Counted from the first letter of the stretch, positions 1,874 through 17,510 are shown. The stretch is DNA of 64,000 nucleotides from Candidatus Saccharimonadia bacterium (GCA_025449535.1 JANWJF010000001.1:677136-741135); one strand, 5' to 3'. Numbers and translations: made by a program. The notes: a model not told the origin generated them from the sequence alone.

Positions 1874-2014
1874 CCACATTCCGTCCACAAGGGGGACAAC
1901 GGCGGCTTGTATAGTGAAAGTGCGACTATCCGTCGTGCCGCGTTTCTACCCGAAACGCTCCCACTCGTCCACGGCATCACTGCCGTGCGTTTCCAAACAG
2001 GAGGAGGAAGGAAA

Positions 2015-2422
2015 GTGGCGACAGCTACCGCTGTAAAAAATGCCACCGCGCCATCCGGTCCGACGGTAGCCCCGGAGACCGCTGGCAGACGGGCAGTACG
2101 AATGCCATCACCCACGGCGCCGCAGCACATGCAGGCCTTGGCCCGCGCGAACCGCGTCCGGCTGGCCCGGGCGGAGCTCAAGCGCTCCATCGCCCGCGGT
2201 GACGCCGATGCGGCTGACGTCATCCGGGAGTGTCCCTGGGAGACCGAGACCATGACGCTGGCCGAGCTGCTCACCAGCCAACGTCGCTGGGGCCGTACCC
2301 GCGCCCGCAAGTTCCTGCTGGGCCTGGCGCTCAGCGAGAACAAGCGGCTCGGCACGCTCACGTCCCGCCAACGCGCCCTGATCAGCACCGAGCTTTCCAA
2401 CAGGAGCTCCGTGCTCGTCTGA
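2015..2422 (+). CDS. integration host factor mIHF-like DNA-binding protein, copy 1
   Basis: C-terminal region resembles actinobacterial mIHF (RARAELKR…TLAELL…GLG.RQR); GTG start after a strong aggaggaggaagga ribosome-binding site; alternative in-frame ATG at 2102. Confidence 0.55.
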   Translation: MATATAVKNATAPSGPTVAPETAGRRAVRMPSPTAPQHMQALARANRVRLARAELKRSIARGDADAADVIRECPWETETMTLAELLTSQRRWGRTRARKFLLGLALSENKRLGTLTSRQRALISTELSNRSSVLV

Positions 2423-2663
2423 GCACTCGAACAACGGCGGCCGGTCGGTCATCAACACGACCCCGGCCGCCCGCGTTCACCTCCTCCTGCTCACACATCT
2501 CGTATCCTTGCTTGCCGATTTACGGCCCGCTTTCGTTTTGCTACCGTTGGAATACGGAACCGCTGAAAACACACGGCGGCTTTCTTTTTGTCCGCGATTC
2601 GCTCTTGATCGGATTGCGTGTCTCACAATCAGGTCAGGAGAAGACGAACGAAGGGAGCAATGG

Positions 2664-3011
2664 ATGAGCCCCGCAGTTGCCGAAGCACCCTCAAGAACCA
2701 AGCTGGGGATTCCGGACCGGTCGCTGGACCAGCGCATGGACGCGCTGAAACATGCCAACGACATCCGGACCGCCCGAGCCAAACTCAAGAAGGACCTCAA
2801 AGCGAGAAAAGCGAGCATCCATGAGTTGCTGCTCGACCCGCCCGAGCACACGCTGACCATGAAGGTCTTCGATCTGCTGCTCGCAGTCCCGAAGTACGGG
2901 CGGATCAAGACCAACCGGGTGCTCAACCAATGCCGGATCTCGCCCTCCAAGACACTCGGCGGACTCTCGGAGCGGCAGCGCCTGGAGCTGGTCAACTATC
3001 TCCGCCGGTAG
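2664..3011 (+). CDS. integration host factor mIHF-like DNA-binding protein, copy 2 (tandem paralog)
   Basis: Same domain architecture as 2015..2422 (ARAKLKKDL…GGLSERQRLEL); ATG at 2664 with a GAAGGGA ribosome-binding site. Confidence 0.55.
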   Translation: MSPAVAEAPSRTKLGIPDRSLDQRMDALKHANDIRTARAKLKKDLKARKASIHELLLDPPEHTLTMKVFDLLLAVPKYGRIKTNRVLNQCRISPSKTLGGLSERQRLELVNYLRR

Positions 3012-3187
3012 GTCCGCCGATGTCCGTGCACGGAGCGGCCGGCCTGGTCAAACTGCGACCCCGCCGGCCGCTCCCCAGCACACCCTCCTGACCTGATTTC
3101 CTGAATACCCTCGTGTCACGCGGGTCGGGTTTCGATATCACACGACTCGCGATTCATTCGCAAGTCGACCCCGAAGCCAGTCGCGTC

Positions 3188-3221
3188 ATACACGTTCGAA
3201 ACCACGGTTTCGAACGTGTAT
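3188..3221. repeat. perfect palindrome with 16-bp arms and a 2-nt spacer (ATACACGTTCGAAACC ac GGTTTCGAACGTGTAT)
   Basis: Read directly from the sequence; lies between convergent genes and at the high-GC/low-GC boundary. Confidence 0.8.
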
Positions 3222-3228
3222 ACAGTCT

Positions 3229-3262
3229 GTGGAGTTGAGCGGGCGTCTTTCGAACCCCGCCT
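3229..3262. repeat. degenerate copy of the tRNA-Ala 3' end (putative att-like direct repeat bounding the islet)
   Basis: gtggagttgagcgggc…tcgaacc…gc matches the plus-strand image of the tRNA-Ala 3' end at 5218-5250 (gtggagctaagcgggctcgaaccgc), 14/16 identical in the first block. Confidence 0.5.
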
Positions 3263-3291
3263 TCAGGCAGAACCTGGCCAAGCTCCTAAGG

Positions 3292-3843
3292 CTAATCCGG
3301 CAGACTCGTTTTTAAATCGTTGAGGAAATCTGCGAGAGATACTATCCGGCAGTTGTACTGCCCAGTGTCTACTGCTTTGAAATCTTTGAGATTAGTGGTT
3401 ACAAGTACGTCACAGCCGAGACGTTCTGCAAGCGAGAAAATGGAAGCATCTGCTTGGCGTTGGTTACGATTCAACCACTGGCGGCTATCCAGTGGTGGTT
3501 TTCCTTGACGCTCGCGCTCCTCGTTGTGTGTGGAGAATGCTGCTTGAGTATCAGCCACTTCACGGCGAATCTCTGAATAGCCGTTTCCTCCTGCGAGTAT
3601 ATCTGGGCCGCCAATAGCTGAGACACCAATTGTGAAGTAACGAGTGTCGTCTTCTGTAAAGCGCTGCTGTAGCAACGTCCAATTACTTTGCCCCGATTCG
3701 GTAAGACGACTCTCGTCAAACTCATCGAGCACTGCACTGACGAGTATGTAATCGTATCCCTCAGGGCTACTGAGGATCGCTTTAGTCATGTGTTGATCCT
3801 GGCAAGCGTCGATTAGGGCGTTAGTGTCAAAAGCGATTAGCAT
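3292..3843 (-). CDS. PIN-domain protein (VapC-like nuclease toxin candidate), ~183 aa
   Basis: N-terminal IAFDTNALID acidic motif and C-terminal GCDVLVTTNLKDF motif typical of PIN domains; ATG at 3843, alternative TTG at 3903; low-GC islet. Confidence 0.6.
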   Translation of the reverse strand: MLIAFDTNALIDACQDQHMTKAILSSPEGYDYILVSAVLDEFDESRLTESGQSNWTLLQQRFTEDDTRYFTIGVSAIGGPDILAGGNGYSEIRREVADTQAAFSTHNEERERQGKPPLDSRQWLNRNQRQADASIFSLAERLGCDVLVTTNLKDFKAVDTGQYNCRIVSLADFLNDLKTSLPD

Positions 3844-3874
3844 CTCGTTTCTAGTATGCTCCAACACAGAGGCG

Positions 3875-4036
3875 CTAACGTTTCTGCTCTCGAACAGCCG
3901 CAAGAACCCTGACTAAATCAGTGAGGTGCCGCTCTCGCTCAACTTTCCGCAAGCTGTATTCGAGCAGCGCCTTCACGTAGCCATCCCAGTCGGGCGGATT
4001 ACGCCGTACGCCCTCGATAGAGAGATCAGAAAGCTT
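3875..4036 (-). CDS. small ORF immediately upstream of the PIN gene (possible antitoxin partner, ~53 aa from a GTG)
   Basis: Position and size fit a type II toxin-antitoxin layout; the N-terminal extension of the 126-aa stop-to-stop ORF looks non-coding (Arg-rich); start uncertain. Confidence 0.2.
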   Translation of the reverse strand, partial: KLSDLSIEGVRRNPPDWDGYVKALLEYSLRKVERERHLTDLVRVLAAVREQKR

Positions 4037-4274
4037 CACGCGCTGCCTCCGGAGCTTCTGTGGCCTCCTTGTTACCACCCAGGTGTATCCGGCAAAGACC
4101 CGAGCGCCGGAATGAAACAGCCGATGCGTGAGCGTGGCACTACAGAAAAGCACCGGTCGTGATCGCCGGCCGGTAGTAAGGGGATAGCGATAGTCAGCCT
4201 GCTGTTTGGAAGCAGTCCCGAACTCGACAGTGCGTGGCTTGCGCGGTCTTCCCACCTACCAACCATACGCTGAC

Positions 4275-4287
4275 GGGGGGGGGGGGG
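4275..4287. repeat. G13 homopolymer tract
   Basis: 13 consecutive G residues ~50 bp upstream of the ATG at 4336, in the divergent intergenic region. Confidence 0.9.
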
Positions 4288-4335
4288 CAATCAAGGTGCC
4301 TTGTAGCGTGTAACTGTCAGTCCTATGCTCGATCT

Positions 4336-5094
4336 ATGAGTAAAGACGATCCGAAGCAAGCCCTAACTACTGTTACAGCAACAGAGCTCAGTGAGCGCAA
4401 GCCAATCACACAGATAATTCACAGGCAGTTAGAAAATCTCCTCCAATACGTTCCAGGTTTACTCGAATCTACAAAGGGCGAGAACGCGACGCGTCTGAGT
4501 CGACTCCTTCAGGCTTTTAATTCTGGTCGATTCATCCAGCAACTTGATAAGGAGCTCGCAGACTTAAGGAAGAGCAGTTCTATTAAGGATGATTATTTCG
4601 TTCAAGAGCAAGCGCTTGAAGGTCTTCAGATTTTATTCGAGTTTATTGACGAGGACTCTCCTGACCTGGTGCGGTTCGAAGCTATGAAACAGGTGTTTCT
4701 AACAATGTGTCAGGAGAAAGACAATTTATCTGACCGAAACGATCCTATTCCTACGCAGTTACTCAGAATCTGCCGAGGACTATCTTCGGGCGAACTGATC
4801 GTCTTGACGACTGCCTATAAATTACGAACCGAAGTAAAAGAAGAACGTAAGCAGGGGAAGCAACCGATTGGGTACTGGCATGAGGAAATTGCGCAGGGCA
4901 GCGGTCTCGTATTTCCAGACCTCGTAGATTTTCACGAAAGAAAACTAATGGACAAGAACCTCATTACTCCGCGGTACCAAAATGACGACCTTATTTATTA
5001 CGGAGCGAAGAATCGTTTAACTGACCTAGGTGAAACACTTTGCGAGTTCATTGGCGAGCTTGATCCCCGCCACCCAAATCCTTTAGCTAAGTGA
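4336..5094 (+). CDS. hypothetical protein, 252 aa, carried on the low-GC islet
   Basis: Long ORF at ~40-45% GC with clear coding periodicity; no recognisable motif. Confidence 0.5.
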   Translation: MSKDDPKQALTTVTATELSERKPITQIIHRQLENLLQYVPGLLESTKGENATRLSRLLQAFNSGRFIQQLDKELADLRKSSSIKDDYFVQEQALEGLQILFEFIDEDSPDLVRFEAMKQVFLTMCQEKDNLSDRNDPIPTQLLRICRGLSSGELIVLTTAYKLRTEVKEERKQGKQPIGYWHEEIAQGSGLVFPDLVDFHERKLMDKNLITPRYQNDDLIYYGAKNRLTDLGETLCEFIGELDPRHPNPLAK

Positions 5095-5218
5095 TCAGTT
5101 TTTGATTTGACGACTGTTCAAGGGTTCGACAAAGGCCCTTTAACTAGTATTAATGGGACAAGAATCGAAACGCCGTAACTGCGGTATTTAATGAATTGTT
5201 CGAGAAACGTTTTGTCTG

Positions 5219-5291
5219 TGGAGCTAAGCGGGCTCGAACCGCTGACCTCCTGCATGCCATGCAGGCGCTCTACCAACTGAGCTATAGCCCC
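5219..5291 (-). tRNA. tRNA-Ala (anticodon GGC)
   Basis: Cloverleaf read from the reverse complement: GGGGCTA acceptor stem, anticodon loop AUGGCAU, T-arm GGTTCGAGCC; CCA not encoded. Confidence 0.9.
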
Positions 5292-5357
5292 AAGTGCATT
5301 TCTTATCCTAGCATCGGCCTCCGCTCTTTCTGTAGGCCATCTCGGCGCCTGCCGGCA

Positions 5358-5390
5358 GGCGGACACCACGATGCCAACTGAGCTATAGCC
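5358..5390 (-). pseudogene. truncated 5' fragment of tRNA-Ala (GGCTATAGCTCAGTTGG) followed by the shared junction motif CATCGTGGTGTCCGCC
   Basis: 17-nt exact copy of tRNA-Ala positions 3-19 lying ~85 nt upstream of the intact gene; the rest does not fold as a tRNA. Confidence 0.5.
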
Positions 5391-5925
5391 TCGCGCGTAA
5401 GAGTATACCGAAGAAAAAAGTTCGACCCGGACATGTCGCGTGAAAGCACACATTCGGGTCGAAGGAAGCCTGGCCCCGCCGCAGCTGGGAATCCACTTGG
5501 CAGTAGAGTGCCGCGGCGGGGCTGGCAAGCGCGTCCGGAGGATCCCTTGACCAGGGACATGTCGATCGCGCAAGTTTCGTGGGTCGTCTATCGGACAGGC
5601 CAAGTGGCTAAAGACGGTTTACAAACCGTCCTCTCCTTGGTGCCAGAGGACGTCCAGCCGGACCCACGCTGTTCGATCTCCAGCAGATGACGCGGCCTAC
5701 CAGCAGACAGGGAGGGATGGCTCGCGTAAATTCACCGCCAAAGAGAACAAGTCTGGTAAGGTGTTGGCAAAAGCCTTACCTTAGTAAAGCCGTTTTTCAT
5801 CATTGCCGCAACCATGTCGACGCGTGATAAGATTGAAGTGATGCATACCGTGAACCGAAACCGCTTTTTCTTTCCCACCTCCGGGCGGTCTTTGGCATGA
5901 GTTAATCACGAACGCATCCGTACGA

Positions 5926-5949
5926 GCCGCCCACCGGGCGGCGTTTTTG
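5926..5949 (+). terminator. intrinsic terminator or attenuator hairpin (GCCGCCC acc GGGCGGC GTTTTT) in the leader of the 5981 operon
   Basis: GC stem followed by a T-tract, 30 nt upstream of the ribosome-binding site and ATG at 5981. Confidence 0.55.
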
Positions 5950-5980
5950 TGAATCAACTAACCAAGGAAAGGAGACCATC

Positions 5981-6187
5981 ATGCATAGCTTCGTACGACG
6001 GATCGAGCAGCTGGATACGCCGGCACCCGCAGACGTGGGCGGCGAGGACTTGGAACCGCAAGTCCGCCAGGCCATCCGGTACGTCGAGCGGGACGACCCG
6101 GAACTGGCCCGGCTGCTGCTTGAGGAATGGCAGGAGCAGCGGGACGGCCGCGAGGCCGGTAATCTGGCGGACGAACCGGTACAATGA
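5981..6187 (+). CDS. small acidic hypothetical protein (68 aa)
   Basis: Strong ribosome-binding site aaggaaaggag; ATGA overlap with the next gene. Confidence 0.5.
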   Translation: MHSFVRRIEQLDTPAPADVGGEDLEPQVRQAIRYVERDDPELARLLLEEWQEQRDGREAGNLADEPVQ

Positions 6188-6648
6188 GACCGATGGCCAA
6201 AGCAAACGTCCTCTACGCCCACCTCGCCGACCAAGCCTTCCCGTCCGAAGGTGGGAAGCTCAACCTGATCGGGATGTTCGGCGGCGTGAACGCGCCGGGC
6301 CGAGTCGGCTTGGCACAGTTCCCGGCGATCTACCCCAGACTGGCTCTGGCGGTAGGCCTCGCTACCACCGAGGACAAGCTTCCGATTACCGTCACGTTCC
6401 GAACCGAGGATGGCAAGGACATCATCCAGCCGTTCAACGGGACGTTCGAGATCCAGCGTCAGGCTGGCGCTCCCAAGAAGGAAGCCGCGAACCTCAGCTT
6501 CAACCTGAACTTCGACACCATCCGGATCGAGAAGGCGGGCAAGCTCTACATCACGATCGAGTCGGAGAAGGACGAGCTGGCCGAGGTCGAGATCGAGGCC
6601 GTCCAGGCGCAGCAACAGCCCCCGCAAGAGTCGCCGAAAAAGCCATGA
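6184..6648 (+). CDS. hypothetical protein (154 aa)
   Basis: Translationally coupled by ATGA overlaps to both neighbours. Confidence 0.5.
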   Translation: MRPMAKANVLYAHLADQAFPSEGGKLNLIGMFGGVNAPGRVGLAQFPAIYPRLALAVGLATTEDKLPITVTFRTEDGKDIIQPFNGTFEIQRQAGAPKKEAANLSFNLNFDTIRIEKAGKLYITIESEKDELAEVEIEAVQAQQQPPQESPKKP

Positions 6649-7136
6649 GCGATTCGCAGAAGCTCCACGAGGTCGCGATCACGGCGATCATCCGGAACGG
6701 CGACGGCCAGTACCTGATCGTCCGGCGTTCGGCGGAGAAGAAGCGGTTCCCGAAGATGTGGACGGTGCCGGGCGGTCGGCTCGAGACCAAGGATTACACC
6801 TCGCTCAAGAAGGACACCAAGGACTACTGGTACAACGTGCTTGAGCGGACGCTGACCCGCGAGATCGATGAGGAAGTCGGGCTCAAGGTCACGCACGTCG
6901 AGTACCTCACCAGTCTGGCGACGGTCCATGCGGACGGCGCACCCTCGCTGGTGATCTCCTGCGTGGCCGACTACGAGAGCGGTGACGTCCGGCTGCAGGA
7001 AGGCGAGACGGATGACTTCGCCTGGGTGAGCTCGGAGGAAGCCAAGGACTACGACCTGATCGACGGGATCATGGACGAGCTGATGATGGCGGACAAGCAC
7101 TTCGCCGGCAGCAAGGCCGAGTGGGCACGTGCGTAG
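6645..7136 (+). CDS. NUDIX hydrolase
   Basis: Nudix box GRLE…REIDEEVG; the track ORF 5949..7136 is an upstream read-through, and the real start is the ATG at 6645. Confidence 0.8.
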   Translation: MSDSQKLHEVAITAIIRNGDGQYLIVRRSAEKKRFPKMWTVPGGRLETKDYTSLKKDTKDYWYNVLERTLTREIDEEVGLKVTHVEYLTSLATVHADGAPSLVISCVADYESGDVRLQEGETDDFAWVSSEEAKDYDLIDGIMDELMMADKHFAGSKAEWARA

Positions 7137-16798: not shown

Positions 16799-16814
16799 CT
16801 TCACGTGACAACCC

Positions 16815-16910
16815 GGAGGAGTGGCAGAGCGGTTGAATGCAGCGGCCTCTAAAGCCGTCAGTTCCCCGCCGGGGAACTTCCCACCAAGGGTTCGAATCCC
16901 TTCTCCTCCG
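16815..16910 (+). tRNA. type-II (long variable arm) tRNA with anticodon CUA; Ser-like identity (G73 discriminator, GGAGGAG acceptor stem); predicted amber-suppressor tRNA-Ser(CUA), or a pseudogene
   Basis: Manual fold: acceptor GGAGGAG/CTCCTCC (an 8th C-G pair is possible), U8, 3-bp D stem with an AGCGG…GG loop, anticodon stem GCGGC/GCCGU, loop CUCUAAA (34-36 = CUA, A37 A38), ~27-nt variable arm with a GTTCCCC/GGGGAAC stem, T-arm AAGGG-TTCGAAT-CCCTT; one base away from a Ser-CGA anticodon loop. Confidence 0.55.
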
Positions 16911-17510
16911 TTCCGGGTGCTGGCGTTCATCGCTGGAACTCACTGTTTATGAGATTGCGGGTAACACCGCCCCCGGAGTCACTTGCTGCGCAAGCAGCAC
17001 CTGCTGCGTACGGACCCGTTCGACTGGGGACCGTACTCAGGTCGGCGCGTGGCTTTTAGAGCCAGGTCGCGTGCCGGATCTTCTCCCTCGGTCGATCCGA
17101 CCAGGGAAATCGTGCGCCGAACTGTCAGGGACGGCGTCCGCAGCGCGAACGAACCGCGCCGCGACCACGAAGCGATCCATCGGGCGATAGGGGCGATGGA
17201 ATCGCAGCAGTGCCGTCGTTTCGTCCGTGCTCCGAGACGACGGTGGGCCTCAACTCATCAGGCCTATGACGGTCCGGGAGCCGGTATCTGAGACCTCGAC
17301 CTCAGCTGCCACCAAAAGGCTCCCGGACCGGAACTTCCCCCAGCACGCGGCCACGACCCATCTCGGGTTCGACACATCAGCCGCTTTCCGACTTCGCAGA
17401 CCATCCAATCTCCGAAGACTTGAATACGAAGCTCGCAAGCCTTCACCGGCGCCCCACGCGAGCTTCTTTCAATTGTGCTCGGAATCCTGCCGGATAGTAC
17501 GATTAGGGGC

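What the first reader, a model, noticed from the sequence alone, without database searches (positions are those of the whole stretch)
5292..7136. 690-bp noncoding leader with a terminator hairpin upstream of an overlapping three-gene operon ending in a NUDIX hydrolase
Between tRNA-Ala and 5981 there is no credible ORF. The region contains several hairpins (for example GACGGTTT-aca-AACCGTC and GGTAAGG…CCTTACC), direct repeats containing the palindrome ACATGT (GGACATGTCG twice), and a GGTCGAAGGAAGC stretch reminiscent of the SRP-RNA GGAA motif. It ends in an intrinsic terminator (5926-5949) only ~30 nt before a strong Shine-Dalgarno site. That arrangement is typical of a riboswitch or attenuator expression platform. 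The CCGGGCGG at 5883 could form an alternative pairing with the terminator arm.

The downstream genes (68-aa acidic, 154-aa unknown, NUDIX) are all joined by ATGA overlaps. This may be a ligand-controlled nucleotide-housekeeping or detoxification unit, or the region hosts an independent small RNA.
Basis: partly seen in the sequence, partly recalled or inferred. Interest (0 to 1): 0.55.

Follow-up and report, generated by a model that had tools for sequence, protein, structure and literature searches.

The report
Unannotated structured RNA gene, not leader
The supposed 690-base "leader" is mostly a structured RNA gene, absent from Rfam, that is probably read from the opposite strand, plus a dead tRNA copy; it is shared by a small clade of uncultured Saccharibacteria, whereas the terminator and the tiny gene beside it are an insertion seen only in this strain.

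Summary

- **5292-5392:** a decayed tRNA-Ala copy on the minus strand.
- **5393-5812:** homologous to the tRNA-Ala/DUF6941 spacer of 11 other distinct Saccharibacteria (candidate phyla radiation, CPR) loci. It is non-coding and has no Rfam match. Its helices covary: 95% of cells paired against 85-90% in shuffles, 0/500 shuffles as high.
- **Strand of that block:** a promoter-like TTGC-17 nt-TT(T/A)ACT motif, a GC hairpin plus T-run, and the G·U wobbles all point to the minus strand. I read it as an independent RNA of about 365 nt, running from about 5777 down to about 5411.
- **About 5813-6155:** present only in this strain. It carries the 5926-5949 terminator, a strong Shine-Dalgarno (SD) site and the 68-aa ORF, which has no homologue among 1.8 billion representative proteins. 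A real alternative pairing and a 28-codon mini-ORF with three consecutive Phe codons (FFF) give it a textbook attenuator geometry, but this cannot be tested by comparison.
- **DUF6941:** in relatives it sits 6 nt downstream of a conserved -10 box, so it is probably leaderless, and its likely start in the window is 6193, not the ATGA at 6184.

Verdict: a probable new small-RNA family of unknown function.

The parts
5218..5291 (-). Intact tRNA-Ala(GGC). It is 96-98% identical to the tRNA of relatives L010 and L009 but only 80% identical to that of the closest relative L006/L017.
5292..5392 (-). Decayed tRNA-Ala copy. Its first 20 nt are intact, and 5374-5390 is an exact copy of 5273-5289. It is followed by a promoter-like GCCGATGCTAGGATAAGA box for the intact tRNA. 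The same unit precedes the tRNA-Ala of L025.
5402..5407 (-). TATACT -10 box of the ancestral tRNA-Ala promoter. It is present (TATACT or TATAAT) in every full-length relative.
5411..5463 (-). Intrinsic terminator of the RNA gene: a hairpin with arms 5421-5436 and 5448-5463, followed on the minus strand by TTTTTTCTT (5419 down to 5411). Every full-length relative has a GC hairpin plus T-rich tract here on the minus strand, although the stem sequences differ between groups.
5411..5777 (-). Proposed RNA transcription unit of about 365 nt, homologous to the tRNA-Ala/DUF6941 spacer of 11 other distinct loci.
5457..5469 (-). CU-rich segment GCUUCCUUCGACC just 5' of the terminator. Group A has AACUUCCUU here and group B has AACUCUCUGAGA.
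5473..5522 (-). Long GC hairpin (GCCCCGCCGC...GCGGCGGGGC). The CCGCCGC/GCGGCGG stem is kept in group A around a variable interior.
5572..5590 (-). Most conserved block, GACCCACGAAACUUG. It contains the 3' arm of helix P-a (plus-strand 5580-5590).
5657..5667 (-). 5' arm of helix P-a (CGUGGGUCCGG). Across 11 sequences P-a has 9 pairs, 4 of them with compensatory changes, 6 G·U cells and no A·C cell on the minus strand.
5591..5656 (-). Its size and sequence vary widely among relatives, and the domain is deleted in L015.
5668..5752 (-). Helix H2 (arms 5737-5752 and 5668-5683) closing a variable insert. It covaries (UUGUUC/GAACAG, UUGCC/GGCAA, CUUcGUCCG/CGGACAAG). In the window it is far more stable on the minus strand (-15.7 against -7.4 kcal/mol).
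5766..5775 (-). 5'-terminal hairpin H1 (GGC-UUUU-GCC). It is kept with different stem sequences in relatives (GGGC/GCCC, GGCC/GGCC, GGAC/GUCC, AGGCU/AGCCU, GCC/GGC) and is missing in L033.
5777..5811 (-). Promoter-like element: -35 TTGCGG (5811 down to 5806), a 17-nt spacer, -10 TTTACT (5788 down to 5783), and a conserved T|A at the predicted start (about 5777). In the 11 sequences with the 17-nt spacer, TTGC is 91-100% conserved and TT(T/A)ACT 91% on average, while the spacer is 48%. The spacer is 17 nt in 11 of 12 sequences.
5813..6155 (+). Insertion seen only in this strain, lying between the RNA promoter and the DUF6941 promoter. It is absent from all relatives. The ancestral sequence resumes at 6156.
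5814..5900 (+). Mini-ORF of 28 codons, MSTRDKIEVMHTVNRNRFFFPTSGRSLA. The three Phe codons are at 5865-5873 and there is no SD.
5849..5899 (+). Predicted helix between region 1 (5849-5866) and region 2 (5883-5899). Region 2 (GGGCGG 5883-5888) can instead pair with the terminator 5' arm 5927-5932, forming an antiterminator.
5926..5949 (+). Intrinsic terminator: 7 GC pairs, loop ACC, tail GTTTTTG.
5964..6187 (+). SD AAGGAAAGGAG followed by the 68-aa acidic orphan ORF (5981-6187). Its last 10 or so codons run into ancestral sequence.
6180..6648 (+). TACAAT -10 box (6180-6185), then 7 nt, then the DUF6941 gene. Its likely start is 6193 (MAKAN...), and it is probably leaderless.
6645..7136 (+). Generic NUDIX hydrolase. 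Its start overlaps the DUF6941 stop codon in an ATGA.

Best explanation
The tract 5292-5980 is three unrelated things placed side by side.

(1) 5292-5392 is a decayed minus-strand tRNA-Ala copy, left where a replacement tRNA-Ala plus a low-GC island entered the resident tRNA gene.

(2) About 5411-5811 is an independent gene for a highly structured non-coding RNA of about 365 nt, transcribed on the MINUS strand. Transcription starts from a promoter-like TTGCGG-17 nt-TTTACT element placed back to back with the DUF6941 promoter. The RNA begins near 5777 with a 5' hairpin, folds into two or three helix-closed domains whose interiors vary freely, and ends at a GC hairpin plus U-run just upstream of the old tRNA promoter. 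The same gene sits in the same place in a small clade of uncultured Saccharibacteria.

(3) About 5813-6155 is an insertion seen only in this strain. It brought a mini-ORF, an intrinsic terminator, an SD and an orphan 68-aa ORF.

DUF6941 and NUDIX have their own promoter, probably of the leaderless type, and are not controlled by a 690-nt leader.

Shown: the homology, the lack of coding signal, the covarying helices, the terminators, and the strain-specificity of the insertion.

Inferred: the strand, the transcript ends, and the function. My committed guess on function is a trans-acting RNA that uses its conserved unpaired CU-rich segments (ACCUUA after the 5' hairpin, CUUCCUU before the terminator) to pair with purine-rich ribosome-binding sites. 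That step is weakly supported, at about 0.2.
For: **Homology**
- nhmmer aligns window 5381-5797 to L011 (E = 1e-19) and 5393-5685 to L006/L017 (E = 5e-13). The profile built from the window, L017 and L011 also picks up L027, L029, L031 and L032.
- L033 has the same architecture when read by eye.

**No known family and not coding**
- No Rfam match in the window or in the relatives.
- No codon periodicity and no consistent frame.

**Structure**
- Group A: 33 pairs, 95.4% of cells paired against 90.1 +/- 1.2 in shuffles (0/500), and 8 pairs with changes on both sides (2/500). Sliding the partners drops pairing to 29-50%.
- P-a plus the H2 core in 11 sequences: 95.4% against 84.7 +/- 1.6 (0/500), and 6 compensatory pairs (0/500).
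- Group B, folded independently, gives the same H1-H2-P-a order.
- The window sequence folds better than shuffles on both strands: z = -4.5 on minus, -3.3 on plus.

**Strand**
- All 9 full-length loci have a GC hairpin plus a T-rich tract on the minus strand only, with one exception: L012 (and its near-identical copy L008) also has a T-run on the plus strand. In L029 the tract is weaker. The stems themselves are not conserved between groups.
- TTGC-17 nt-TT(T/A)ACT is conserved around a variable spacer.
- P-a has 6 G·U and 0 A·C cells on the minus strand.
- Helices predicted with G·U forbidden give 18 G·U against 8 A·C for the minus strand.
- Summed duplex energies favour minus: H2 -150.8 against -139.4, P-a -162.3 against -149.8 kcal/mol.

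**Insertion**
- It is absent from all relatives.
- The right edge realigns to ancestral sequence with score 38, against a maximum of 29 in shuffles.
- ORF68 has no homologue.

**DUF6941 promoter**
- (T/G)AAGCT-N6-ATG is present in all 12 relative loci read. The window has TACAAT-N7-ATG at 6193.
Against: - There are no expression data, so strand and transcript ends rest on motifs.
- The proposed -10 (TTTACT/TTAACT) lacks the near-invariant A at position 2, and the simple sigma-70 scan found no promoter.
- RNAalifold energies do not separate the strands, and a few helices are more stable on the plus strand (L017, L014 and L016 H2).
- The G·U events are few and partly inherited, amounting to about 4 independent events in P-a.
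- Only 12 distinct sequences from one narrow clade are available, and shuffle controls can be beaten by relatedness alone.
- Parts of the RNA are dispensable: the P-a domain is deleted in L015 and H1 is missing in L033.
- The sister lineages L025 and L028, and all loci where the tRNA is in plus orientation, lack it.
- MAFFT alignments across groups are unreliable, and helices were partly placed by hand.
Confidence: 0.65

Rival explanations
1. An add-on to the best explanation rather than an alternative to it. The last 170 nt or so (5814-5980) would be a working leader-peptide transcription attenuator for the 68-aa ORF. Ribosomes stalled at the three Phe codons (5865-5873) would cover region 1 and free region 2 (5883-5899). 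Region 2 would then pair with 5927-5932, block the terminator hairpin and allow read-through. Ribosomes that reach the stop codon at 5898-5900 would cover region 2, and the terminator would form.
For: - The terminator is strong (-15.1 kcal/mol, z = -2.8).
- The antiterminator fold is -20.2 kcal/mol, z = -2.4, and it is the minimum-energy fold of 5875-5950.
- The 1:2 helix appears in the minimum-energy fold of 5840-5985.
- The mini-ORF with FFF ends inside region 2.
- The upstream copy of the 3' arm is a 13/16 direct repeat (D8).
- I found no promoter between the terminator and the SD, so ORF68 seems to depend on read-through.
Against: - The mini-ORF has no SD and no convincing promoter upstream.
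- The whole 146-nt region folds no better than shuffles, z = -0.4.
- The downstream genes (an orphan ORF, DUF6941, NUDIX) have no visible link to phenylalanine.
- No second sequence exists to test conservation.
- The FFF run may simply be a T-rich tract.
- ORF68 itself may be an accidental ORF: it ends in ancestral sequence, and its antisense frame scores as well.
Confidence: 0.25
2. One reading: the whole of 5292-5980 is one plus-strand cis-regulatory leader (a riboswitch or attenuator) controlling an operon of the 68-aa ORF, DUF6941 and NUDIX.
For: - The region is long, non-coding and structured.
- A terminator lies next to the SD.
- The genes abut or overlap.
Against: - The first 100 nt are a minus-strand tRNA pseudogene.
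- The terminator, the SD and the 68-aa ORF are missing from all relatives that keep DUF6941 and NUDIX.
- No aptamer family matches.
- Terminators and a promoter-like motif in the conserved part face the other way.
- The DUF6941 -10 box lies 6 nt from the ATG in relatives.
Confidence: 0.05
3. The conserved structured RNA is real but is transcribed on the plus strand, either as a small RNA or as a long 5' UTR reaching DUF6941 in relatives.
For: - The helices are nearly strand-symmetric.
- RNAalifold finds about 100 pairs on the plus strand, with G·U pairs.
- The plus strand folds with z = -3.3.
- Some H2 duplexes are more stable on the plus strand.
- Conservation in group B runs right up to the DUF6941 ATG.
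Against: - There is no plus-strand promoter, because the space between the tRNA 5' end and the first hairpin is only about 30 nt.
- The plus strand lacks a T-run after the hairpins in 7 of 9 loci.
- P-a has A·C and C·A mismatches on the plus strand in L011, L029, L033 and group B.
- The conservation next to the ATG is explained by the two back-to-back promoters.
Confidence: 0.15
4. The conserved spacer is a non-functional relic, for example the scar of a mobile element at the tRNA-Ala integration site. Its similarity would reflect recent common descent, and its helices would be DNA palindromes.
For: - The locus is an integration hot spot: an island, a pseudo-tRNA and unrelated orphan cargo in L025 and L028.
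- The distribution is narrow, insertions and deletions are large, and whole domains can be lost.
Against: - Compensatory changes keep the helices while the interiors are replaced. Examples are AAAGG/CCUUU against GGGAU/AUCCC, and GGAGAC/GUCUCU against GGAGAU/AUCUCU (statistics).
- A terminator function is kept with unrelated stems.
- The promoter hexamers are conserved around a free spacer.
Confidence: 0.1

Closest known systems
Bacterial small or medium non-coding RNA genes with their own promoter and intrinsic terminator. Examples recalled from my own knowledge, not tested by any model here: C/CU-rich SD-targeting sRNAs of the RsaE/RoxS type, and the larger structured orphan RNAs catalogued in Rfam.
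   Same: - It is a discrete unit bounded by a promoter-like motif and a hairpin plus U-run.
- It is non-coding.
- It has a 5' hairpin and conserved helices that covary.
- It has conserved unpaired CU-rich segments.
- Its interior evolves fast.
   Different: - None of the 4227 Rfam models matches it in the window or in the relatives.
- It is large for a small RNA: about 365 nt here, and spacers of about 500-660 nt in group B.
- It is confined to one narrow Saccharibacteria clade.
- No target, partner or transcript is known.
Leader-peptide transcription attenuators of amino-acid operons (trp, his, pheA, pheST leaders; from my own knowledge)
   Same: A short ORF with tandem codons for one amino acid (FFF) overlaps region 1. 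The pairings 1:2, 2:3 and 3:4 are mutually exclusive. A terminator lies about 30 nt before the first SD.
   Different: - The leader ORF has no SD.
- The downstream genes are unrelated to phenylalanine.
- It is not conserved anywhere and sits inside a strain-specific insertion.
Riboswitches and T-box leaders
   Same: A long structured non-coding tract lies upstream of genes, with LeuRS a little further downstream, and ends in a terminator.
   Different: No aptamer or T-box match at E <= 10. The structured, conserved part faces away from the genes, and the terminator part is not conserved.
SRP (4.5S) RNA
   Same: It contains a GGAAGGAAG-like string (5460-5469).
   Different: No SRP model matches on either strand. 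On the likely coding strand the string reads CUUCCUU and directly precedes the terminator.
Genomic islands integrated at tRNA genes
   Same: An 18/20 direct repeat of the tRNA-Ala 3' end (3225-3244 and 5214-5233) brackets about 2 kb at 45-52% GC, against about 63% in the flanks. A duplicated tRNA 5' end is present.
   Different: No integrase or any recognisable gene lies in the island. The element seems to carry its own complete tRNA-Ala and to have split the resident one.

Membership tests
Known riboswitch or cis-regulatory RNA family (Rfam) | Sequence and structure match to a curated aptamer or leader model | tested here: not met
   Only tRNA reaches a gathering score. At E <= 10 over 5100-6100 the only other hits are chance-level ones, 10.8-17.2 bits against gathering scores of 32-47. 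Nothing was found in 8 relatives' loci.
Known riboswitch or cis-regulatory RNA family (Rfam) | The leader is conserved upstream of the same genes in relatives | tested here: not met
   The terminator, SD and ORF68 segment 5813-6155 is absent from all relatives. The conserved part faces the other way.
Leader-peptide transcription attenuator | Intrinsic terminator shortly upstream of the first structural gene | tested here: met
   5926-5949: 7 GC pairs plus a T-run, -15.1 kcal/mol, z = -2.8.
Leader-peptide transcription attenuator | A mutually exclusive antiterminator pairing | tested here: met
   5883-5888 pairs with 5927-5932. The fold is -20.2 kcal/mol, z = -2.4, and is the minimum-energy fold of 5875-5950. 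This is in silico only.
Leader-peptide transcription attenuator | A short leader ORF with tandem regulatory codons over region 1 and a stop codon near region 2 | tested here: met
   ORF 5814-5900, Phe codons at 5865-5873, stop at 5898-5900.
Leader-peptide transcription attenuator | The leader ORF has a translation start signal and a promoter upstream | tested here: not met
   No SD lies before 5814, and no promoter-like site was found by scan. A near-leaderless start cannot be excluded.
Leader-peptide transcription attenuator | The regulated genes belong to the pathway of the sensed amino acid | tested here: not met
   The downstream genes are an orphan 68-aa ORF, DUF6941 and a generic NUDIX.
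SRP RNA | Match to the SRP covariance models (domain IV hairpin with its conserved loops) | tested here: not met
   No SRP hit at E <= 10 on either strand.
T-box leader (considered because LeuRS lies downstream) | Match to the T-box model (specifier stem and T-box sequence) | tested here: not met
   No hit.
Independent bacterial non-coding RNA gene | Non-coding | tested here: met
   No GC periodicity by codon position. tblastx frames are inconsistent. No Pfam match for the ORFs.
Independent bacterial non-coding RNA gene | Conserved secondary structure with covariation | tested here: met
   0/500 shuffles reach the observed pairing or covariation score, and slid controls give 26-50% pairing. 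The caveat is that only 6-11 related sequences were available.
Independent bacterial non-coding RNA gene | Own terminator | tested here: met
   A hairpin plus T-rich tract on the minus strand in all 9 full-length loci, weaker in L029.
Independent bacterial non-coding RNA gene | Own promoter | tested here: inconclusive
   TTGC-17 nt-TT(T/A)ACT and a T|A start are conserved around a variable spacer. However, the -10 lacks A at position 2 and the consensus scan is negative.
Independent bacterial non-coding RNA gene | A discrete transcript is detected | not testable with these tools
tRNA-targeted genomic island | Direct repeats derived from the tRNA, and deviating base composition | tested here: met
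   Repeats D2 and D4. GC is 0.44-0.53 over about 3150-5250, against about 0.63 in the flanks.
tRNA-targeted genomic island | An integrase or recombinase gene | tested here: not met
   The island ORFs have no Pfam, NCBIfam or PADLOC hit.

The most novel reading that the evidence does not exclude
The spacer between tRNA-Ala and DUF6941 encodes a new family of large, multi-domain structured RNAs, about 365 nt here with spacers of up to about 660 nt in relatives. The family is specific to a clade of high-GC environmental Saccharibacteria (CPR), has its own promoter and terminator, and has no counterpart among the 4227 Rfam families. Few non-coding RNAs have been described in CPR bacteria (my own recollection), so such an RNA could be an entry point to post-transcriptional control in these reduced genomes. 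Separately, a textbook Phe-codon leader-peptide attenuator may have arisen inside a strain-specific insertion in an organism that, like other CPR bacteria (my own knowledge, not tested here), probably lacks phenylalanine biosynthesis.
Probability: 0.5. Interest if true: 0.55.

Novelty: new member of a known kind. Interest (0 to 1): 0.45.

Why it matters
If the minus-strand RNA is real, it adds a covariation-supported, fairly large structured RNA to a phylum for which no non-coding RNA surfaced in four full-text literature searches. It also gives a concrete target, with predicted ends, helices and conserved unpaired motifs, for metatranscriptome mapping and covariance-model searches.

The case also shows why a long "empty" spacer next to a tRNA gene should not be read as a leader of the next gene. 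Here it hides three things: an opposite-strand gene, a dead tRNA, and a strain-specific insertion that happens to look like an attenuator.

The practical limits are the narrow distribution and the unknown function.

Tried and rejected
**Known RNA families**
- SRP RNA, RNase P RNA, tmRNA, 6S, T-box, riboswitches and group I/II introns: no Rfam or ARAGORN hit in the window or in 8 relatives' loci.
- I also compared the sequence by eye with the E. coli M1, 4.5S and tmRNA sequences as I recall them, and found no hallmark motif. This is my own knowledge, not a test.

**Coding explanations**
- Coding by the 85-aa and 161-aa ORFs is rejected.
- The ORF68 homologue searches came back empty, as did the search for its antisense ORF.

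**The GGACATGTCG repeat**
- It occurs at about the rate expected by chance, and its second copy is not conserved.

- A fuzzy search for the conserved 16-mer found no second copy in the window or in any locus.
- MAFFT alignments across groups A and B misalign the variable domains, so the cross-group helices were placed by anchors and by hand.
- RNAalifold energies did not discriminate the strands.

**Other leads**
- I considered a closing helix between the tRNA-promoter region and the DUF6941 SD region. I rejected it because its columns never vary, and two promoters explain why.
- The DUF6941 fold (a beta-sandwich weakly like PDE6-delta/UNC119, TM 0.4-0.5) gave no link to RNA.
- The literature searches found nothing relevant.


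Full report
**Source and layout.**
The window comes from an uncultured Patescibacteria/Saccharibacteria genome. The DUF6941 protein encoded at 6193-6648 is identical to a protein that NCBI labels "MAG TPA ... Patescibacteria group bacterium", carried on an 813-kb contig. Five Logan contigs are 100% identical to the window. Three of them break at 5242-5244, inside the tRNA gene.

Around the finding the order is:
- two H2TH-domain ORFs;
- a decayed tRNA 3' half at 3225-3270;
- a low-GC island, 3245-5217, at 45-52% GC against about 63% in the flanks;
- tRNA-Ala(GGC) on the minus strand, 5218-5291;
- the 690-nt tract;
- the 68-aa ORF, DUF6941, NUDIX and LeuRS.

**Check of the observation.**
These points hold up:
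- The terminator at 5926-5949 is called by the scan and folds at -15.1 kcal/mol, z = -2.8.
- The proposed alternative pairing is real in silico. GGGCGG 5883-5888 pairs with CCGCCC 5927-5932 in a -20.2 kcal/mol fold (z = -2.4), which is the minimum-energy structure of 5875-5950.
- No ORF in 5292-5980 looks coding. GC by codon position is flat (0.62/0.59/0.63), against 0.62/0.39/0.88 for real genes here.

These points do not hold up:
- The GGACATGTCG repeat is about what chance gives (my arithmetic: about 0.2 expected).
- The GGAA stretch has no SRP match.
- The last 146 nt as a whole are no more stable than shuffled sequence (z = -0.4).

**Relatives.**
DUF6941 homologues, their contigs and two collection scans gave about 25 loci. 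tRNA-Ala(GGC) lies upstream of DUF6941 in all but one of the loci whose contigs reach that far; L009's contig ends in a partial copy, and short contigs end before it. There are two arrangements.

In the first, the tRNA has the same orientation as DUF6941. It is either directly upstream (L010, L013, L019, L020) or separated from it by unrelated cargo (L018, L021-L023, L025, L028).

In the second, the tRNA is inverted and a spacer of about 420-660 nt follows. nhmmer shows that the spacers of this second set are homologous to window 5393 to about 5812. The window aligns to L011 at E = 1e-20 and to L006/L017 at E = 5e-13, and profile searches add L027, L029, L031 and L032.

I call the window, L017, L027, L031, L011, L029 and L032 group A. 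L012 (with its near-identical copy L008), L014, L016 and L015 form group B. L033 is a more diverged member with the same architecture. No locus of the first arrangement has a match.

**The first 100 nt.**
In L006/L017 the intact tRNA-Ala sits exactly where the window has only the first 20 nt of a tRNA (5373-5392), followed by about 80 nt of degenerate sequence. The stretch 5374-5390 is an exact copy of 5273-5289.

The same unit precedes the tRNA-Ala of L025: a tRNA 5' end, a CGCCTGC...GCAGGCG remnant, and GCCGATGCTA(G/C)GATAAGA. The window's intact tRNA resembles those of L009 and L010 (96-98%), not that of L017 (80%). An 18/20 repeat of its 3' end bounds the low-GC island.

I infer that a cassette carrying its own tRNA-Ala split the resident gene. 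No integrase is present.

**The conserved block is a structured, non-coding element.**
Rfam finds nothing in it, in the window or in the relatives. tblastx matches jump between frames.

A long-range helix, P-a, covaries: CGUGGGUC/GACCCACG in the window, CGUGAGUC/GACUCACG in L017 and group B, and CGUGGAUY/RAUYCACG in L011, L029 and L032. A second helix, H2, closes a variable insert: UUGUUC/GAACAG, UUGCC/GGCAA, UUGCUC/GAGCAG, and CUUcGUCCG/CGGACAAG in group B. Inside the P-a domain of group B, whole helix segments are swapped: AAAGG/CCUUU against GGGAU/AUCCC, and GGAGAC/GUCUCU against GGAGAU/AUCUCU.

The counts are as follows:

| Alignment | Pairs | Cells paired | Shuffled control | Pairs changed on both sides | Slid-partner control |
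|---|---|---|---|---|---|
| Group A | 33 | 95.4% | 90.1 +/- 1.2 (0/500 as high) | 8 (2/500) | 29-50% |
| 11 sequences, P-a plus H2 core | 12 | 95.4% | 84.7 +/- 1.6 (0/500) | 6 (0/500) | 26-45% |

In the second alignment the covariation score is 0.41 against 0.20 in shuffles. Group B, folded on its own, gives the same order H1, H2, P-a.

The interiors of the domains vary in length and sequence. L015 has lost the P-a domain and L033 has lost H1.

**Strand.** Four lines of evidence point to the minus strand.
1. All nine full-length loci have a strong GC hairpin immediately followed, on the minus strand, by a T-rich tract, 20-70 nt before the tRNA's TATACT/TATAAT box. The tract is weaker in L029. 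The stems of groups A and B are not alignable, so what is conserved is the terminator-like function, not the sequence.
2. At the other end, TTGC-N2-N17-TT(T/A)ACT is conserved (TTGC 91-100%, the -10-like hexamer 91% on average). The 17-nt spacer is only 48% conserved but has a fixed length in 11 of 12 sequences. A T|A step follows 5-7 nt downstream, and a 5' hairpin follows directly after that.
3. In P-a, which is defined by Watson-Crick complementarity and therefore strand-neutral, there are 6 G·U and 0 A·C cells on the minus strand. Helices predicted with G·U forbidden give 18 G·U against 8 A·C for the minus strand.
4. Summed duplex energies favour the minus strand for both H2 and P-a, and the z-score of the window sequence is -4.5 on minus against -3.3 on plus.

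The caveats are these. The -10-like hexamer lacks A at position 2. The consensus scan is negative. RNAalifold energies do not separate the strands. The wobble events are few.

The resulting model for the window is:
- -35 at 5811 down to 5806;
- -10 at 5788 down to 5783;
- transcription start at about 5777;
- H1 at 5766-5775;
- H2 at 5737-5752 with 5668-5683;
- P-a at 5657-5667 with 5580-5590;
- the conserved block CACGAAACUUG;
- a GC hairpin at 5473-5522;
- CUUCCUU;
- the terminator hairpin at 5421-5463;
- the U-run at 5419 down to 5411.

That gives an RNA of about 365 nt.

**DUF6941 needs no leader.**
In all 12 relative loci read, (T/G)AAGCT lies exactly 6 nt before the ATG of MAKAN.... In group A it is preceded by TGn, an extended -10. 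In group B it is preceded by TTGCAT at 17 nt. That is the geometry of a leaderless mRNA; this is an inference.

The window has TACAAT (6180-6185), then 7 nt, then the ATG at 6193. The ATGA at 6184-6187 therefore probably joins ORF68 to a non-native upstream start codon. The DUF6941/NUDIX ATGA overlap is also present in L006 (4-nt overlap by coordinates). The arrangement varies elsewhere: NUDIX is inverted in L007 and L009.

**The terminator, SD and 68-aa ORF are an insertion.**
Relatives go from the RNA's -35 box to the DUF6941 -10 box within a few nucleotides. The window has about 345 extra nucleotides there. Window 6156-6204 realigns to the ancestral promoter region with score 38, against a maximum of 29 in shuffles.

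ORF68 has no homologue among 5.8 billion proteins in the word-indexed search, nor among 1.84 billion representatives read exhaustively. In its favour, it has a good SD and a period-3 GC pattern. Against it, its antisense frame scores equally well, and its last 10 or so codons lie in ancestral sequence.

L025 and L028 carry a different small orphan ORF, also preceded by a terminator and an SD, at the equivalent place. The site therefore collects small cargo.

**Attenuator reading of the insertion.**
The insertion begins with a 28-codon ORF (5814-5900) that contains FFF at 5865-5873 and stops inside region 2. Folding gives a 1:2 helix (5849-5866 with 5883-5899), a 2:3 antiterminator and the 3:4 terminator. 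I found no promoter between the terminator and the SD.

This is the classical trp/pheA design, which I recall from my own knowledge. Against it:
- the mini-ORF has no SD;
- there is no convincing promoter upstream;
- the region is no more stable than shuffled sequence overall;
- the downstream genes have no link to phenylalanine;
- nothing comparable exists elsewhere to test it.

I give it about 0.25.

**Function of the RNA.**
Nothing here shows its function. The conserved unpaired parts are A/C/U-rich. After H1 the sequence is AC(C/U)UU(A/C)A. Before the terminator it is AACUUCCUU in group A and AACUCUCUGAGA in group B. By analogy with CU/C-rich small RNAs that pair with ribosome-binding sites (my own knowledge), I commit to that mechanism, at low confidence. 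A protein-binding scaffold is equally open.

The predicted DUF6941 fold, a beta-sandwich weakly resembling PDE6-delta/UNC119, suggests no RNA link.

**Verdict.**
The "690-nt leader of a three-gene operon" is not supported.

The RNA is a probable new family of a known kind, a bacterial non-coding RNA gene, with narrow distribution and unknown function. I score interest at 0.45.

Noticed in passing
window 16814-16911 (+): A type-II tRNA (long variable arm, Ser/Leu-like D-arm) with anticodon loop CUCUAAA, so the anticodon is CUA, which reads the UAG stop codon. ARAGORN labels it tRNA-Pyl, and the Rfam tRNA model scores it at 58 bits. It may be an amber suppressor in a Saccharibacteria genome.
   Followed up: partly
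window 3225-5233: A low-GC island of about 2 kb (45-52% GC against about 63%) lies between a decayed tRNA-Ala 3' half (3225-3270) and the intact tRNA-Ala, bounded by an 18/20 direct repeat. Its three ORFs (3292-3903 minus, 3875-4255 minus, 4234-5094 plus) have no Pfam, NCBIfam or PADLOC hit, and there is no integrase. Three of the 100%-identical public contigs break inside the tRNA, which suggests the island is polymorphic.
   Followed up: partly
window 5292-5392 and L025 313-410: A conserved pseudo-tRNA unit immediately precedes the intact tRNA-Ala in two lineages, in opposite orientations relative to DUF6941. It consists of the first 20 nt of tRNA-Ala, a CGCCTGC...GCAGGCG remnant, and a GCCGATGCTA(G/C)GATAAGA box.
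   Followed up: partly
window 1907-2422 and 2508-3011 (+): Two paralogous ORFs with an S13-like H2TH domain sit where relatives have thioredoxin and thioredoxin reductase upstream of the tRNA. I judged them similar to mycobacterial integration host factor (mIHF) from memory only. L025 has a similar small ORF upstream of its tRNA.
   Followed up: no
L025 486-925 and L028 788-1227: Between tRNA-Ala (plus orientation) and DUF6941 these relatives carry a different cargo: a terminator, an SD and an unrelated 59-aa orphan ORF. This mirrors the window's terminator-SD-orphan arrangement.
   Followed up: partly
window 6193-6648: The DUF6941 model (pLDDT 81.5) is an all-beta sandwich. Its best PDB neighbours are the lipid-binding PDE6-delta and UNC119 proteins, at a weak TM-score of 0.4-0.5.
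   Followed up: partly
window 4270-4287: A run of about 12 G residues (acgggggggggggggca) lies inside the island near the start of the 286-aa ORF. It could be a slippage-prone tract or an assembly artefact.
   Followed up: no
window 5954-6205 (-): An 83-aa ORF lies antisense to the 68-aa ORF in the same triplet phase. Its codon-usage score is equal or slightly better (0.49 against 0.39), and it too has no homologues, so which strand codes, if either, remains open.
   Followed up: partly
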